Shown in pieces: positions 1 to 5,554 of a DNA stretch of 64,000 bases. Within the stretch, counting starts at the first letter, position 1. Each line of letters begins with the position of its first letter. Source of the stretch: Escherichia coli (lineage in GTDB: Bacteria; Pseudomonadota; Gammaproteobacteria; Enterobacterales; Enterobacteriaceae); NCBI RefSeq assembly GCF_041248615.1, contig NZ_CP158426.1; one strand, given 5' to 3'. Made by a program: the position numbers and the translations under genes. The notes under the pieces are model-generated. The model was not told the origin of the DNA. It ran no database searches and was given only the letters and a program-made list of their open reading frames with translations.

Positions 1-503
1 CCGATTCGCTGGCCTTAAAAAGAGTGGAACTCGGCATTGTGACGTTCGGCCCGGTGCATGTGGAACAACCCTTTACCAGCGCCGCTAATTTTTTCCCGCC
101 CATCCTGTTTGCCCAGGGCGATACACCAATGGGCGCTGCCATTACCAAAGCCCTGGATATGGTAGAGGAGCGGAAACGTGAGTATCGTGCAAATGGTATT
201 TCGTATTATCGCCCGTGGATTTTCCTGATCACCGATGGCGCTCCAACCGATGAGTGGCAGGCTGCCGCCAACAAAGTGTTTCAGGGGGAAGAAGATAAGA
301 AGTTTGCCTTCTTTTCCATCGGTGTTCAGGGGGCGGATATGAAGACTTTGGCACAAATCAGCGTTCGTCAGCCTTTGCCACTGCAGGGATTACAATTCCG
401 TGAACTGTTTAGCTGGTTATCCAGTTCGCTGCGTTCGGTTTCCCGCTCCACGCCGGGAACGGAAGTTGTGCTGGAAGCGCCAAAAGGCTGGACGTCAGTG
501 TGA
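1..503 (+). CDS. yegL: von Willebrand factor A (vWA) domain protein, C-terminal part (5' end upstream of window)
   Basis: Frame is open from the window edge to TGA at 501-503 (track ORF 24..503 is only the part after an internal GTG). It carries a vWA/MIDAS-type motif [10 protein letters not shown], and its stop overlaps the next start (GTGA). Recognised as E. coli YegL. Confidence 0.85.
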
Positions 504-1261
504 GCTGGCGTCTGGTCTATGCATCAACCGTTGGAACGTCGCACATCAGCGCGGACTTGCCTTGCCAGGATGCCTGCCAGATGCAGGTTGCCTGGTTAAA
601 TGACCAGCAGCCATTATTGTCGGTATTTGTCGCCGATGGCGCAGGTAGCGTCTCGCAGGGTGGCGAAGGTGCGGAGCTTGCCGTTAATGAAGCGATGGCT
701 TATATGATGCAAAAATTGCAGGGCGGGGAATTGGGGCTTAATGATGTCCTCGCAACGGATATTGTGCTGACCGTTCGTCAGCGACTTTTTGCCGAGGCGG
801 AAGCCAAAGAATTAGCTGTTCGCGATTTTGCCTGCACGTTTATGGGATTGATTTCATCAGCTAATGGCACCCTGATTATGCAGATTGGCGATGGCGGCGT
901 GGTGGTAGATTTGGGGCACGGTCTGCAACTGCCGCTCACGCCGATGGTAGGTGAATATGCCAATATGACACACTTCATTACTGATGAAGATGCCGTTTCC
1001 AGACTGGAAACTTTCACCAGCACTGAGCGTGCGCATAAAGTTGCAGCATTTACGGATGGTATCCAGCGGCTGGCGTTAAATATGCTGGATAATTCTCCCC
1101 ATGTGCCTTTCTTTACCCCGTTTTTCAATGGGCTGGCGTCAGCAACGCAGGAACAACTCGATTTATTACCTGAATTGTTAAAGCAGTTTTTGTCCAGCCC
1201 GGCGGTAAACGAGCGTACGGATGATGATAAAACGTTGGCACTGGCGCTGTGGTTACCATGA
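500..1261 (+). CDS. pphC: PP2C-like Ser/Thr protein phosphatase
   Basis: 253-aa ORF with PP2C metal-site signatures [23 protein letters not shown] and RTDDDKT. GTG start overlaps the yegL stop. Recognised as YegK/PphC. Confidence 0.85.
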
Positions 1262-3198
1262 AACCCACTTTATATACTGCTACTGGTGAGTGCGTTACGC
1301 CAGGCTGTGAACTGGGCAAAGGTGGCGAAGGCGCGGTTTATGATATCGAGGAGTTTGTCGATAGCGTCGCCAAGATTTATCACACGCCGCCACCCGCCTT
1401 AAAACAGGACAAACTTGCCTTTATGGCTGCGACAGCTGACGCACAGTTGCTGAATTATGTCGCCTGGCCGCAGGCAACGCTTCACGGTGGACGAGGCGGA
1501 AAAGTTATCGGTTTTATGATGCCAAAAGTTTCTGGTAAAGAACCGATTCATATGATCTATAGCCCGGCACATCGTCGCCAGAGTTACCCTCATTGTGCGT
1601 GGGATTTTCTACTCTATGTTGCGCGTAATATTGCTTCATCTTTTGCTACGGTTCACGAGCACGGGCATGTCGTGGGTGACGTAAACCAGAACAGCTTTAT
1701 GGTAGGCCGTGACAGCAAAGTGGTGTTGATTGATAGCGACTCCTTTCAGATTAACGCCAACGGCACACTGCATTTATGCGAAGTCGGCGTGTCGCATTTT
1801 ACGCCGCCAGAGCTGCAAACCTTGCCATCATTTGTCGGCTTTGAACGCACCGCGAATCACGATAATTTTGGCCTTGCGTTGCTGATTTTTCACGTCTTGT
1901 TTGGTGGTCGGCATCCTTATTCCGGTGTACCGCTTATCTCTGATGCGGGTAATGCGCTGGAGACGGATATTGCCCATTTCCGTTATGCCTACGCGTCAGA
2001 TAATCAGCGACGTGGTTTAAAACCGCCGCCACGATCTATTCCGCTGTCGATGTTACCGGGCGATGTTGAAGCCATGTTTCAGCAGGCATTCACGGAAAGT
2101 GGCGTGGCAACCGCGCGTCCGACGGCAAAAGCGTGGGTAGCGGCACTTGATTTACTACGCCAACAGTTAAAGAAATGTACCGTTTCGGCAATGCATGTTT
2201 ACCCCGGTCATTTGACTGACTGCCCGTGGTGTGCGCTGGATAATCAAGGCGTTATCTATTTTATTGATCTCGGCGAAGAGGTCATTACCACCGGCGGTGA
2301 TTTTGTGCTGGCGAAAGTCTGGGCAATGGTGATGGCGTCAGTAGCACCACCAGCATTGCAACTGCCATTACCCGATCATTTCCAACCGACTGGCAGGCCG
2401 CTTCCTTTAGGCCTGTTACGGCGTGAATACATCATTCTGATTGAGATCGCACTGTCAGCGTTATCGCTGCTGCTTTGCGGCCTTCAGGTAGAACCGCGTT
2501 ATATCATTTTGGTTCCCGTGCTGGCGGCTATCTGGATTATTGGCAGCCTGACAAGCAAAGCGTACAAAGCAGAAATCCAGCAACGTCGTGAGGCGTTTAA
2601 TCGCGCGAAAATGGACTATGACCATTTAGTAAGCCAGATCCAACGGCTGGGCGGGCTGGAAGGTTTTATCGCCAAACGGGCGATGATCGAAAAAATGAAG
2701 GACGAAATTCTCGGGTTACCGGAAGAGGAGAAACGCGCTCTGGCAGCACTTCATGACACTGCAAGGGAACGGCAGAAGCAGAAGTTTCTGGAGGGATTTT
2801 TTATTGATGTTGCCTCTATTCCCGGCGTTGGCCCTGCGCGTAAAGCGGCGTTACGGTCTTTTGGTATTGAAACAGCCGCAGATGTTACCCGTCGTGGCGT
2901 TAAGCAAGTGAAAGGGTTTGGCGACCATCTGACCCAGGCGGTTATCGACTGGAAAGCGAGTTGTGAACGCCGTTTTGTGTTCAGGCCGAACGAAGCGGTA
3001 ACGCCTGCAGACAGACAAGCGGTACTGACTAAAATGGCCGCCAAACGACATCGGCTGGAATCGACGTTGACTGTCGGCGCGACAGAGTTGCAGCGATTCC
3101 GCCTTCAAGCTCCAGCACGGACCATGCCGTTGATGGAACCGTTACGTCAGGCGGCAGAAAAACTGGCTCAGGCGCAGGCTGAATTAAGCCGTTGCTGA
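1249..3198 (+). CDS. yegI: Eukaryotic-like (Hanks-type) Ser/Thr protein kinase with TM hairpin and C-terminal tandem HhH
   Basis: 649-aa track ORF from GTG 1249; ATG at 1258 gives an ATGA overlap with the yegK stop and may be the true start. Kinase motifs: Gly loop GKGGEGAVY, Lys in VAKIY, catalytic GDVNQNS, DFG-like IDSDSF, APE-like TPPE. Two hydrophobic helices and two helix-hairpin-helix motifs (IPGVGPARKAAL, VKGFGDHLTQAV). Confidence 0.85.
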   Translation: MVTMKPTLYTATGECVTPGCELGKGGEGAVYDIEEFVDSVAKIYHTPPPALKQDKLAFMAATADAQLLNYVAWPQATLHGGRGGKVIGFMMPKVSGKEPIHMIYSPAHRRQSYPHCAWDFLLYVARNIASSFATVHEHGHVVGDVNQNSFMVGRDSKVVLIDSDSFQINANGTLHLCEVGVSHFTPPELQTLPSFVGFERTANHDNFGLALLIFHVLFGGRHPYSGVPLISDAGNALETDIAHFRYAYASDNQRRGLKPPPRSIPLSMLPGDVEAMFQQAFTESGVATARPTAKAWVAALDLLRQQLKKCTVSAMHVYPGHLTDCPWCALDNQGVIYFIDLGEEVITTGGDFVLAKVWAMVMASVAPPALQLPLPDHFQPTGRPLPLGLLRREYIILIEIALSALSLLLCGLQVEPRYIILVPVLAAIWIIGSLTSKAYKAEIQQRREAFNRAKMDYDHLVSQIQRLGGLEGFIAKRAMIEKMKDEILGLPEEEKRALAALHDTARERQKQKFLEGFFIDVASIPGVGPARKAALRSFGIETAADVTRRGVKQVKGFGDHLTQAVIDWKASCERRFVFRPNEAVTPADRQAVLTKMAAKRHRLESTLTVGATELQRFRLQAPARTMPLMEPLRQAAEKLAQAQAELSRC

Positions 3199-3210
3199 GC
3201 CAGTTTTCAA

Positions 3211-4563
3211 TTAACGAAACACCACTTCCGCCCAGCGTGCCAGCCCGGCGGTGACGGAGCCAAAGTCATCGCCGCCTGCAATCGGAATGCCCGGCAACTG
3301 TTCTGCCAGCGCCTTTTTAATCAGCGGTGAACGGGCGCTACCGCCGGTCAGGTAGATAACGTCCGGTTTTTCCTGGGCGTTATCCAGGGCCAGTTGCACC
3401 TGTTCCAGAATCCGCGCCAGTGGCTGGCTGAGGGCGCTTTCCAGCCCTTGCTGGCTAATCAGCGTAGCCAGTTCATCGCTGATAAACGGCAGTGAGGCGC
3501 GGGTTTCCGCTACGCTTGAAAGCGCAATTTTGCTCTCTTCTGCGCTACGTACCAGGCGATAGCTTAAACGCTGACGCCAGACTTTCTGTAACAGGGCCAC
3601 TTTTTCCGGTTCGCGGGCATCGCGTACCAGATCGTTAAGCAGACGACCGTTGGCACTACTGTAGAAATCACTTTGCGCAGGGACGTCGTTGATGGCAACC
3701 GCATTCCACCACGGCAGAATCGGCAGGGCGATGCCTTTTTCGGTTTCGCCCCCCATGCCCAGTAACGGCATCAGGTTTTTAAACGCCAGTGCGATATCCA
3801 GATCGTTACCGCCAATACGGCAACCACTGTGACCCAGCAGGCTGGCTTCACGATCGAGACGCGAACGCCACTGCGGCCCCATCAGCAGCAATGAACAGTC
3901 AGTCGTACCACCGCCGATATCCACCACCAGCACCCGTTTTTCTTCCTGCAAGGTGGCTTCGTAATCCAGCCCAGCCGCGACCGGCTCGTACTGGAATACC
4001 ACATCCTTAAACCCGGCACGCTTCGCCGCGCGTTCCAGAATCCCCTGCGCCTGGGTGTTTGCTTCATCGCCGCCAAGCCCCTGGAAGTTGATAGGGCGAC
4101 CAATTACCGCCTGAGTAATCGCATCCGGCAGCTGTGCCTGCGCCTGCTGGCGAATGTGCAACATCATTGCGCAGACCAGATCCTCAAACAGCGCTACCTG
4201 CTGCGGTTTTAAGCCGCTGGCACCGAGGAACGATTTTGGTGATTTCACAAACCACACTTCTTCTGGATCATCAATGTACTGTGCCAGTGAGGAAAGACCG
4301 AACTGCACGCTTTTCGCCGTAACATCGATATCTTCTTCGCGGTTATAACGAATCGCCCGACGCAACAGCGCCTGCGTTTCATCGTCGTCTGCCGGAACAT
4401 CATGATGGCGGTACAGCCATTCGCTTACCGCTTCACGCGTTGGCGCGCAAAGCATTGAAGGCAGCAGCGTGCTGTCGTTTTCCATTTTCAGTAATTGCGG
4501 CTTACCGTCGCGCATGACCGCCACTGAACAGTTTGCTGTACCGTAATCAAAACCAATAAACAC
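3211..4563 (-). CDS. yegD: Hsp70/actin-fold ATPase family protein
   Basis: Motifs GFDYGTANCSVA (phosphate-1), VVDIGGGTTDCSLL and IYLTGGSARSP. Track ORF 3211..4626 trimmed to GTG at 4563, which gives the conserved MFIGFDYGT N-terminus (450 aa as I recall for YegD). Confidence 0.85.
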   Translation of the reverse strand: MFIGFDYGTANCSVAVMRDGKPQLLKMENDSTLLPSMLCAPTREAVSEWLYRHHDVPADDDETQALLRRAIRYNREEDIDVTAKSVQFGLSSLAQYIDDPEEVWFVKSPKSFLGASGLKPQQVALFEDLVCAMMLHIRQQAQAQLPDAITQAVIGRPINFQGLGGDEANTQAQGILERAAKRAGFKDVVFQYEPVAAGLDYEATLQEEKRVLVVDIGGGTTDCSLLLMGPQWRSRLDREASLLGHSGCRIGGNDLDIALAFKNLMPLLGMGGETEKGIALPILPWWNAVAINDVPAQSDFYSSANGRLLNDLVRDAREPEKVALLQKVWRQRLSYRLVRSAEESKIALSSVAETRASLPFISDELATLISQQGLESALSQPLARILEQVQLALDNAQEKPDVIYLTGGSARSPLIKKALAEQLPGIPIAGGDDFGSVTAGLARWAEVVFR

Positions 4564-4696
4564 GAAATAATCCCCATGCCGGTGAAGAAGGGGCGTGACT
4601 TTAGCGAAATGTTGCCGTCGCGACAACCGGAATATGAAAGCAAAGCGTAGCGTCTGAATAACGTTTATGCTGAAAGCGGATTAACAAGGAGATGCG

Positions 4697-5554
4697 ATGT
4701 ATACCCTGAACTGGCAGCCGCCGTATGACTGGTCGTGGATGTTGGGATTTCTCGCCGCCCGTGCGGTGAACGGTGTGGAAACGGTCGCTGACGATTATTA
4801 TGCCCGTAGTCTGGCGGTGGGCGAATATCGCGGCGTGGTGACTGCTATTCCGGATATAGCCCGCCATACTCTGCACATAAATTTAAGTGCAGGTTTAGAA
4901 CCTGTTGCCGCAGAGTGTCTGGCGAAAATGAGCCGCCTGTTTGATCTGCAATGTAACCCGCAGATTGTTAACGGTGCGTTGGGCAAGTTAGGCGCGGCGC
5001 GGCCCGGATTGCGTTTACCCGGCAGTGTTGATGCTTTTGAGCAGGGCGTGCGGGCGATTTTAGGCCAACTGGTGAGCGTGGCGATGGCGGCAAAATTGAC
5101 CGCCAGAGTGGCACAGCTTTATGGCGAACGGCTGGATGATTTTCCGGATTATGTCTGCTTCCCCACGCCTCAGCGGCTGGCAGCAGCCGACCCGCAGGCA
5201 TTAAAAGCGTTAGGTATGCCGTTGAAACGGGCAGAGGCGCTGATTAATCTGGCAAATGCGGCGCTGGAGGGCACCTTACCAATGACAATTCCGGGCGACG
5301 TAGAGCAAGCGATGAAAACGCTGCAAACTTTTCCGGGTATCGGGCGCTGGACGGCGAATTATTTCGCCTTACGTGGCTGGCAGGCGAAAGATGTTTTCCT
5401 GCCGGATGATTATCTGATTAAACAGCGATTTCCGGGAATGACACCGGCACAAATCCGCCGTTATGCCGAACGCTGGAAGCCCTGGCGTTCTTATGCGCTG
5501 TTGCATATCTGGTATACGGAAGGCTGGCAACCAGACGGAACGGACGAATTGTAG
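4697..5554 (+). CDS. alkA: 3-methyladenine DNA glycosylase II
   Basis: 285-aa ORF with an HhH-GPD glycosylase region (FPGIGRWTANYFALRGW ... LPDDYL). The N-terminus MYTLNWQPPYDWSWMLGFL is recognisable as AlkA. Confidence 0.9.
   Translation: MYTLNWQPPYDWSWMLGFLAARAVNGVETVADDYYARSLAVGEYRGVVTAIPDIARHTLHINLSAGLEPVAAECLAKMSRLFDLQCNPQIVNGALGKLGAARPGLRLPGSVDAFEQGVRAILGQLVSVAMAAKLTARVAQLYGERLDDFPDYVCFPTPQRLAAADPQALKALGMPLKRAEALINLANAALEGTLPMTIPGDVEQAMKTLQTFPGIGRWTANYFALRGWQAKDVFLPDDYLIKQRFPGMTPAQIRRYAERWKPWRSYALLHIWYTEGWQPDGTDEL

What the first reader, a model, noticed from the sequence alone, without database searches (positions are those of the whole stretch)
2420..2960. The kinase carries a two-helix membrane hairpin, a coiled coil and tandem helix-hairpin-helix motifs
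Downstream of the kinase domain and a Cys/His patch (HLTDCPWCALD), the YegI translation has three further elements:
- Two adjacent hydrophobic helices (IILIEIALSALSLLLCGL and IILVPVLAAIWIIGSL, nt ~2422-2560).
- A charged, heptad-like stretch.
- Two HhH motifs (IPGVGPARKAALRSFGIETAADV and VKGFGDHLTQAVIDW, nt ~2797-2955).

A hairpin of two TM helices would place both the kinase and the HhH module in the cytoplasm. That predicts a membrane-tethered kinase with a non-sequence-specific DNA- or protein-binding HhH pair. This is an unusual combination for a bacterial Hanks kinase, and it hints that nucleic acid at the membrane (for example incoming DNA or nucleoid contacts) could be the signal or target.
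Basis: partly seen in the sequence, partly recalled or inferred. Interest (0 to 1): 0.5.

Follow-up and report, generated by a model that had tools for sequence, protein, structure and literature searches.

The report
YegI kinase: membrane hairpin, stalk, HhH
The region is the C-terminal half of the known E. coli membrane kinase YegI; its two-pass membrane anchor is already published and its helix-hairpin-helix pair is already in database names, and the one new detail is that the pair probably sits at the tip of a long cytoplasmic coiled-coil stalk.

Summary
Window 1258-3198 (+) is E. coli yegI, the last gene of the yegL (vWA) - pphC (PP2C) - yegI cassette.

**Already known**
- Rajagopalan & Dworkin showed with PhoA-LacZα fusions that YegI is two-pass, with both termini cytoplasmic.

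**Confirmed here**
- Two hydrophobic helices lie at nt 2422-2484 and 2503-2550.
- A basic (HhH)2 unit lies at nt 2794-2973. It scores below Pfam's threshold, but both hairpins align in register with solved HhH proteins.

**Refined here**
- The "heptad stretch" is only the up-strand of an antiparallel coiled-coil hairpin. Its partner is the C-terminal 63-residue helix.

**Context**
- The cassette order holds in bacteria of many phyla and in Methanoregula.
- Five of six non-Escherichia contexts examined carry recognised defence genes.

DNA binding and any defence role are untested. Verdict: already known, with one structural refinement.

The parts
1..503 (+). 3' part of yegL (vWA protein). The gene starts before the window, and its stop overlaps the pphC start by 4 nt.
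   Evidence: Pfam VWA E = 3e-7. RefSeq annotation of a 100%-identical genome. The full-length protein carries a DVSGS MIDAS-like motif.
500..1261 (+). pphC (yegK), a PP2C-type Ser/Thr phosphatase. It overlaps the yegI start by 4 nt (ATGA).
   Evidence: Pfam PP2C_2 E = 1.6e-50. RefSeq annotation. Reported to dephosphorylate YegI (cited).
1258..3198 (+). yegI, 646 aa from the RefSeq start. The mechanical ORF from GTG 1249 gives 649 aa.
   Evidence: Residues S153, S160, S162, S602 and S644 match the published phosphosite numbering.
1258..2157 (+). Atypical Hanks-type kinase core (aa 1-300), with a VGD..Q.S catalytic loop and a DSD loop in place of DFG.
   Evidence: Invariant motifs in alignment A1. 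Weak NCBIfam and PADLOC kinase hits. Kinase activity is published.
2167..2247 (+). CHCC zinc-ribbon-like element (C307, H313, C322-P-W-C325).
   Evidence: The four residues are invariant in 26 homologues. phmmer recovers the segment in 60+ loci. The full-length model has two short strands followed by a helix here.
2422..2484 (+). Membrane helix 1 (aa 389-409).
   Evidence: Hydropathy. AF2 helix 389-408. Published fusions: 390 cytoplasmic, 414 periplasmic or in the membrane.
2503..2550 (+). Membrane helix 2 (aa 416-431). It runs straight into the first stalk helix.
   Evidence: Hydropathy. AF2 helix 413-465 is continuous. Published fusions: 432 periplasmic or in the membrane, 439 cytoplasmic.
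2557..2793 (+). Up-strand of the antiparallel coiled-coil stalk (aa 434-512). It is four helices, broken at the conserved G-F and L-P.
   Evidence: AF2 C-terminal model, pLDDT 95.4. Co-variation with the down-strand.
2794..2973 (+). (HhH)2 domain at the stalk tip (aa 513-572). Hairpin 1 is IPGVG (nt 2818-2832) and hairpin 2 is VKGFG (nt 2908-2922).
   Evidence: Pfam HHH_5, sub-threshold. PDB profile hits in register. Invariant glycines and conserved K/R after the hairpins, mean net charge +3.8. 13 internal co-varying pairs among the top 60.
3004..3192 (+). Down-strand of the stalk (aa 583-645). It is one long helix that returns to the membrane and carries the published autophosphorylation sites S602 and S644.
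   Evidence: AF2 helix 151-213 of the fragment. Co-variation band i+j = 212-230. Longer homologues place a third membrane helix directly after it. Phosphosites.

Best explanation
This is the C-terminal half of E. coli YegI, the kinase of a conserved three-gene vWA / PP2C / Ser-Thr-kinase cassette of the TerY-P type.

**Architecture**
- From the N-terminus: an atypical Hanks-type kinase, a CHCC zinc ribbon, a linker, a tight two-helix membrane hairpin, and a cytoplasmic module of about 210 residues.
- In that module, roughly 60 residues of helix run away from the membrane.
- A basic (HhH)2 domain forms the tip.
- One long helix then runs back antiparallel to the membrane.
- My estimate from about 55-63 paired residues is that the HhH pair is held 8-9 nm into the cytoplasm.

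**Inferred function**
- The HhH pair probably contacts the sugar-phosphate backbone of nucleic acid without sequence specificity.
- DNA lying close to the inner membrane would gather or re-orient YegI molecules.
- That would promote the trans-autophosphorylation that activates the kinase. PphC resets it, and YegL is a partner or substrate.
- The cassette most likely works as a conflict or stress-sensing module rather than in housekeeping.

**Shown versus inferred**
- Shown by others: kinase activity, topology, phosphosites.
- Shown here by computation: the motifs, their conservation, the antiparallel stalk and the cassette conservation.
- Inferred: DNA binding, the activation mechanism and any defence role.
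For: **Identity**
- The sequence is 100% identical to annotated yegL-pphC-yegI, and 5423 of 5426 complete E. coli genomes match the 4.7-kb query spanning this locus.

**Topology**
- Published PhoA-LacZα fusions.
- Hydropathy and K/R flanks.
- The hairpin is conserved in all but one of 64 homologues.

**HhH pair**
-.
- R/K at the two positions after hairpin 1 in 98-100% of sequences.
- The whole C-terminal module has a mean net charge of +9.9.

**Antiparallel stalk**
- The AF2 model has pLDDT 95.4.
- In mean-field DCA on 321 sequences, the three strongest pairs are 48-168, 45-175 and 59-158.
- 13 of the top 60 pairs fall in the band i+j = 212-230, against 3.3 expected. Neighbouring bands hold 0-1 pairs.
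- Longer relatives have a third membrane helix right after the last helix, followed by TPR, SH3_3, PG_binding_2 or TonB_C domains. The C-terminus must therefore return to the membrane.

**Cassette**
- The order vWA, PP2C, kinase-ZnR-TM-CTD holds in nearly all loci with enough flank. These include Paenibacillus, Acidobacteria, Pirellulales, Nitrospira and Methanoregula.

**Conflict context**
- Neighbours include type I R-M, GmrSD, Mrr, AbiH, KAP NTPase, BrxR, JetB and dCTP deaminase, in 5 of 6 non-Escherichia contexts.
- The module also occurs on conjugative plasmids.
- TerY-P triads defend against T7-like phages.
- Their kinases carry a zinc ribbon or an OB fold C-terminally.

**Link to DNA**
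- YegI and YegL are both listed among proteins whose overproduction raises endogenous DNA damage.
- Autophosphorylation follows second-order kinetics.
Against: - No experiment shows nucleic-acid binding by YegI.
- The Pfam HHH_5 score is below the gathering threshold.
- (HhH)2 domains can also serve as protein-protein modules.
- Fold searches with the whole module never returned an HhH protein, because the coiled coil dominates. I could not model the HhH domain alone, so its five-helix fold was not superposed on a solved one.
- I had no model coordinates. The stalk geometry rests on secondary structure, fold hits and co-variation.
- The co-variation band was chosen after seeing the top pairs.
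- PADLOC's TerY-P kinase and phosphatase models do not match YegI or PphC.
- The locus is core in E. coli and barely expressed under laboratory conditions. That is atypical for an accessory defence system.
- No homologue was found in phage genomes.
Confidence: 0.55

Rival explanations
1. The (HhH)2 tip is a protein-protein interaction module. It would dimerise YegI, or dock YegL or PphC, as the (HhH)2 domains of ERCC1-XPF do. Nucleic acid would play no part, and the stalk would simply present an interaction surface.
For: - Autophosphorylation is second order, which is consistent with dimerisation.
- The three genes are strictly co-inherited, so physical contacts among the products are likely.
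- There are no DNA-binding data.
- The Pfam score is sub-threshold.
- That HhH pairs can mediate dimerisation is established knowledge of the XPF/ERCC1 family. I take this from memory and did not test it here.
Against: - K/R at the positions following hairpin 1 are conserved in 98-100% of sequences, and the domain is net positive in every homologue, from +1 to +6.
- The best sequence matches are nucleic-acid-binding HhH units: L32e, Pol IV, REV1 and LigA.
- Related TerY-P kinases carry an OB fold at the same end.
- YegI and YegL overproduction raises DNA damage.
Confidence: 0.25
2. The C-terminal module is chiefly a mechanical signal-transmitting stalk. It would couple a change in the membrane, sensed by the hairpin or by periplasmic domains in longer relatives, to the kinase. 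The HhH unit would be a structural cap with no ligand of its own.
For: - Longer relatives add a third membrane helix and periplasmic TPR, SH3_3, PG_binding_2 or TonB_C domains. This suggests envelope-derived input.
- The autophosphorylation sites S602 and S644 lie on the down-strand.
- Membrane helix 2 is continuous with the first stalk helix.
Against: - The HhH segment is the most conserved part of the C-terminal module. FGIETAAD is nearly invariant from Escherichia to Methanoregula. That is more than a passive cap would need.
- The E. coli protein has only a 6-residue periplasmic loop and no sensor domain.
Confidence: 0.12
3. The motifs are chance resemblances in a low-complexity helical tail, or the tail is periplasmic. 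In either case the HhH reading would be meaningless.
For: The only support is that Pfam HHH_5 is below its gathering score and that fold searches returned no HhH protein.
Against: - Published fusions at 439 and 646 are cytoplasmic.
- The motifs are invariant across phyla.
- PDB profile hits align both hairpins in register.
- 13 co-varying pairs lie inside the domain.
- 1238 clusters match the module at E <= 1e-10.
Confidence: 0.03

Closest known systems
E. coli YegI itself (Rajagopalan & Dworkin: bioRxiv 10.1101/819920; FEBS Lett 2020 as cited)
   Same: It is the same protein, and residue numbering matches the published phosphosites. The two-pass, N-in/C-in topology, kinase activity, phosphosites S153/S160/S162/S602/S644 and the partner phosphatase PphC are all published.
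   Different: The preprint text has no occurrence of helix-hairpin-helix, HhH or coiled coil. The antiparallel stalk with an apical HhH pair is added here.
[quoted passage not shown]
   Same: It has the same domain combination. JGI gives the equivalent name to homologues that are 56-60% identical to YegI. In P. aeruginosa ATCC 27853 it lies two locus tags from the vWA family COG4245.
   Different: The COG name is only a label. It says nothing about the membrane hairpin or the stalk, and the function is untested. I could not check directly that YegI is a listed member.
TerY-P (TerY-phosphorylation) triads, including the anti-phage TerY-P systems of Gao et al. 2020
   Same: It is a three-gene vWA + PP2C + Ser/Thr kinase cassette. 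The kinase is followed by a zinc ribbon, neighbours are often defence genes, and a putative nucleic-acid-binding domain sits at the kinase C-terminus.
   Different: The YegI family adds a membrane hairpin and a coiled-coil/(HhH)2 module in place of an OB fold. PADLOC's TerY-P models do not recognise YegI or PphC, and recognise YegL only weakly (E = 0.013). No defence phenotype is known for the E. coli locus.
Antiparallel coiled-coil stalks with a functional tip (SMC hinge, Rad50 hook, dynein stalk)
   Different: There is no sequence relationship. This stalk is much shorter and is anchored in the membrane, and the tip is an HhH pair. The resemblance is architectural only.
Canonical (HhH)2 domains (Pfam HHH_5; haloarchaeal L32e N-terminus; Y-family polymerase thumb)
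   Same: There are two h-x-x-h-x-G-h-G hairpins joined by a connector helix, and basic residues follow the hairpins.
   Different: The connector is three residues shorter than in L32e. The score is below Pfam's threshold. The domain is inserted in a coiled coil rather than standing free.

Membership tests
(HhH)2 domain (Pfam HHH_5 type) | Two helix-hairpin-helix motifs with G-h-G hairpins joined by a connector helix | tested here: met
   IPGVG and KGFG hairpins have invariant glycines in 26 and 44 homologues. AF2 places helices on both sides of each hairpin.
(HhH)2 domain (Pfam HHH_5 type) | Score at or above Pfam's gathering threshold | tested here: not met
   19.9 bits for the full protein and 21.7-22.3 bits for the C-terminal fragment, against a 27-bit cut-off. 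E = 2e-4 to 1e-3. 26 of 44 relatives hit at E <= 0.01, and the lowest E-value among them was that of the window fragment itself, which is below the cut-off.
(HhH)2 domain (Pfam HHH_5 type) | Sequence similarity to solved HhH proteins, with both hairpins in register | tested here: met
   A profile of 69 columns finds L32e at E = 0.0027-0.008 with both hairpins aligned, Pol IV at 0.017, REV1 at 0.79 and LigA at 1.8.
(HhH)2 domain (Pfam HHH_5 type) | Compact five-helix fold that superposes on a solved (HhH)2 | tested here: inconclusive
   Fold searches of the whole module were dominated by the coiled coil. No separate domain model could be made. The 13 internal co-varying pairs are consistent with a compact fold.
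(HhH)2 domain (Pfam HHH_5 type) | Non-sequence-specific nucleic-acid binding | not testable with these tools
   Only indirect support exists: conserved K/R and net positive charge.
Two-pass inner-membrane protein, N-in/C-in | Two hydrophobic helices with a short loop and positive flanks; reporter fusions | tested here: met
   Hydropathy and flanks. Conserved in all but one of 64 homologues. The experimental PhoA-LacZα data come from the literature.
Hanks-type Ser/Thr kinase | Match to the Pkinase profile and the canonical HRD/DFG motifs | tested here: not met
   No Pfam Pkinase hit for YegI at E <= 1. Hits to LanL, Bud32 and PD-T4-6 kinase regions are weak. The motifs are VGD and DSD. Distant relatives reach Pkinase at E = 7e-9 to 1e-5. 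Kinase activity itself is published, so it works as a kinase.
TerY-P triad | Adjacent vWA, PP2C and Ser/Thr kinase genes in one operon | tested here: met
   The order is conserved in nearly all of about 70 loci with enough flank.
TerY-P triad | Kinase followed by a zinc ribbon | tested here: met
   Invariant C307, H313, C322 and C325.
TerY-P triad | Recognition by the defence-system HMMs (PADLOC) | tested here: not met
   Only a weak TerY hit for YegL (E = 0.013). There is no hit for PphC, and YegI hits PD-T4-6 and MkoA kinase regions only.
TerY-P triad | Protection against phage | not testable with these tools
   I found no published phage-defence test of the E. coli yegL-pphC-yegI locus in the held literature.
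Intramolecular antiparallel coiled-coil stalk | Contacts between an N-terminal and a C-terminal helix running in opposite directions | tested here: met

The most novel reading that the evidence does not exclude
The YegI family may be a membrane-anchored nucleic-acid sensor kinase. The (HhH)2 tip, held a fixed distance below the inner membrane, would detect DNA entering or lying at the membrane, such as phage DNA being internalised or conjugative DNA. It would convert that into trans-autophosphorylation. The vWA/PP2C/kinase cassette would then be a new, membrane-based branch of TerY-P-type immunity that is present in almost every E. coli.
Probability: 0.15. Interest if true: 0.7.

Novelty: already known. 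Interest (0 to 1): 0.25.

Why it matters
YegI is one of the few Ser/Thr kinases of E. coli, and its signal, its substrates and the purpose of its cassette are all unknown. A cytoplasmic HhH pair on a rigid stalk gives a concrete, testable idea for the missing input: nucleic acid near the membrane. It also links a core E. coli locus to TerY-P-type defence cassettes. The elements in the finding itself are already published or already in annotation, so the value lies in the experiment it suggests rather than in the observation.

Tried and rejected
- The afdb50 library was not available.
- The full-length model was poor for the kinase domain (pLDDT 65). I used it only for helix boundaries.
- A crude heptad score did not flag residues 434-512. 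I dropped it in favour of co-variation.
- A first hydropathy pass at a strict threshold found only one membrane helix in half of the homologues. Inspecting the sequences showed that the second helix is Gly/Ala/Trp-rich but uncharged. I therefore rejected the idea of a one-pass topology with a periplasmic tail.
- A PDB sequence search with the whole-module profile gave spurious hits to clostridial toxin repeats.
- PADLOC did not classify the cassette.
- There were no Rfam matches on either strand in window 1-5000.
- The antisense ORFs at 2751-3044 and 2851-3108 have no support.
- There were no homologues in phage genomes.
- The TerY-P paper of Anantharaman et al. 2012 and the FEBS Letters version of the YegI paper are not held. 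I could not check whether they mention the HhH or the stalk.
Full report
**What is there**

- Window 1249-3198 (+) is a 649-codon ORF. RefSeq starts it at ATG 1258, giving 646 aa, and calls it protein kinase YegI.
- The first 4.7 kb of the window are 100% identical to several complete E. coli genomes. Of 5426 complete genomes, 5423 match that 4.7-kb query.
- Upstream lie yegL (vWA, cut by the window start) and pphC (PP2C). Each overlaps the next gene by 4 nt. Downstream lie yegD (convergent), alkA and dgcE.
- No Rfam family matches either strand in window 1-5000.

**The observation**

- The two hydrophobic segments, nt 2431-2484 and 2503-2550, are the only strongly hydrophobic 19-residue windows in the protein. 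A six-residue loop separates them and K/R-rich sequence flanks them on both sides.
- Across 64 full-length homologues from genome contigs, all but one have a 31-43-residue uncharged hydrophobic stretch, or two shorter uncharged segments, at this position. It often has a central P-x-x-W turn.
- A stricter hydropathy threshold misses the second helix in half of them, because it is Gly/Ala/Trp-rich.

**The topology is already settled**

- Rajagopalan and Dworkin predicted the hairpin with Phobius and tested it with PhoA-LacZα fusions.
- Fusions at positions 340, 390, 439 and 646 behaved as cytoplasmic. Fusions at 414 and 432 behaved as periplasmic or in the membrane (bioRxiv 10.1101/819920).
- That preprint contains no occurrence of helix-hairpin-helix, HhH or coiled coil.

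**The HhH pair**

- Pfam HHH_5 matches aa 518-553 at E = 1e-3 (19.9 bits). On the C-terminal fragment it reaches E = 2e-4. Both are below the 27-bit gathering score.
- 26 of 44 relatives hit HHH_5 at E <= 0.01.
- A 69-column profile of the region searched against all PDB sequences finds the N-terminal HhH pair of haloarchaeal L32e at E = 0.0027-0.008, with both hairpins aligned. It then finds E. coli Pol IV (0.017), REV1 and NAD-ligase.
- The hairpin glycines are invariant. The segment FGIETAAD between the motifs is nearly invariant from Escherichia to Methanoregula.
- The two residues after hairpin 1 are K/R in 98-100% of sequences. The domain is net positive in every homologue, with a mean of +3.8.
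- The combination is not a new observation:
  - JGI names homologues 'DNA-binding helix-hairpin-helix protein with protein kinase domain'.
  - NCBI names many of them 'helix-hairpin-helix domain-containing protein'.

**The coiled coil, corrected**

- AlphaFold2 on a 44-sequence alignment of aa 436-649 gives a confident model (mean pLDDT 95.4, pTM 0.68). It has four helices (fragment 2-80), the HhH region (81-139), and one 63-residue helix (151-213).
- I had no coordinates, so I tested the pairing independently:
  - I ran mean-field DCA on 321 non-redundant module sequences (effective number 249).
  - The three strongest couplings overall are 48-168, 45-175 and 59-158.
  - 13 of the top 60 couplings fall in the band i+j = 212-230, against 3.3 expected. 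Neighbouring bands hold 0-1.
  - The band was chosen after seeing the top pairs, so the p-value of about 2e-5 is only indicative.
  - A further 13 of the top 60 couplings lie inside the HhH region.
- A second independent line comes from longer relatives. They have a third membrane helix 10-25 residues after the last helix, followed by TPR, SH3_3, PG_binding_2 or TonB_C domains. This requires the chain to be back at the membrane at that point.
- In the full-length model, membrane helix 2 runs without a break into the first stalk helix.
- The 'heptad-like stretch' is therefore the up-strand of a stalk. The HhH pair is its tip. The down-strand carries the published autophosphorylation sites S602 and S644.

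**The Cys/His patch**

C307, H313, C322 and C325 are invariant. They correspond to the zinc ribbon described for TerY-P kinases.

**Family and context**

- The C-terminal module matches 2030 clusters at 50% identity (1238 at E <= 1e-10). Most are proteins of about 645 aa with the module at about 436-645.
- A scan of one genome per species found 230 loci. They include Escherichia, many Burkholderiales, Xanthomonas, Pseudomonas, Paenibacillus, Acidobacteria, Pirellulales, Verrucomicrobia, Nitrospira and Methanoregula.
- In nearly all loci with enough flank the order is vWA, PP2C, then kinase-zinc ribbon-hairpin-module.
- Five of six non-Escherichia neighbourhoods examined contain recognised defence genes: type I R-M, GmrSD, Mrr, AbiH, KAP NTPase, BrxR, JetB and dCTP deaminase.
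- The module also occurs on conjugative plasmids, but not in phage genomes.
- vWA/PP2C/kinase triads of the TerY-P type protect against T7-like phages. However, PADLOC's models do not recognise YegI or PphC.
- In E. coli the locus is core and barely expressed in the laboratory.
- YegI and YegL are both listed among proteins whose overproduction raises endogenous DNA damage.

**How it most likely works**

- Shown by others: YegI is an active kinase. [quoted passage not shown]
- Shown here by computation: the stalk-and-tip architecture, its conservation, and the cassette.
- Inferred:
  - The basic HhH tip binds nucleic-acid backbone at a set distance from the membrane. I estimate 8-9 nm from the roughly 55-63 paired residues.
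  - This clusters or re-orients YegI to drive trans-autophosphorylation, and PphC resets it.
- I give this 0.55. Most of the doubt concerns DNA binding and the biological role, not the anatomy.
- The main rival is that the HhH pair is a protein-docking or dimerisation surface (0.25).

**Verdict**

- The finding is correct but ordinary as a discovery.
- The membrane hairpin and the cytoplasmic location are published. The kinase-HhH combination has long been in database names.
- The one addition is the antiparallel stalk with the HhH pair at its apex. That gives a sharper hypothesis for the still unknown signal of this kinase.

Noticed in passing
P0258, P0276, P0284, P0299, P0358, P0360 (relatives found); L063:4597-7281: Longer family members add a third membrane helix right after the module, then periplasmic-type domains (TPR, SH3_3, PG_binding_2, TonB_C). 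P0297 and P0358 lack the kinase and carry Cys-rich N-termini instead. The coiled-coil/HhH module is therefore a mobile, always membrane-proximal unit.
   Followed up: partly
L061, L077, L080, L085 (Methanoregula MAG contigs): The complete vWA-PP2C-kinase-HhH cassette occurs in methanogenic archaea with the same gene order. This implies inter-domain transfer, or possibly mis-binned contigs.
   Followed up: no
L018 (Shigella flexneri), L009, L010 (Escherichia spp.), L006:3973-4699: yegI is broken into fragments in Shigella flexneri and in two Escherichia species genomes. In a K-12-like genome a gap of about 0.7 kb separates pphC from yegI, which is the yegJ insertion described in the literature.
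   Followed up: partly
window 4697-5554: The alkA ORF is intact as a 285-codon frame in the window. RefSeq nevertheless marks alkA as a frameshifted pseudogene in the 100%-identical genome NZ_AP022087. I did not compare it with a reference AlkA sequence.
   Followed up: no
window 500-503 and 1258-1261: Both gene junctions of the cassette are 4-nt overlaps. The pphC-yegI junction reads ATGA (yegI start ATG 1258-1260, pphC stop TGA 1259-1261), and yegL (stop at 503) overlaps the GTG start of pphC at 500. This suggests translational coupling of vWA, phosphatase and kinase.
   Followed up: no
L001:2907-3623 (upstream of the window): Three Ibs-family type I toxin genes lie between mdtA and yegL in the matching genome.
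   Followed up: no
window 2440-2442 (Glu in IILIEIAL): The Escherichia membrane helix 1 contains a glutamate in its hydrophobic core. Most homologues have no charge there.
   Followed up: no
H20 NC_009444.1 (P. fluorescens SBW25 plasmid, 425,094 bp) and 25 Agrobacterium plasmids: Relatives of the C-terminal module are encoded on large, mostly conjugative plasmids. Their gene context was not examined.
   Followed up: no
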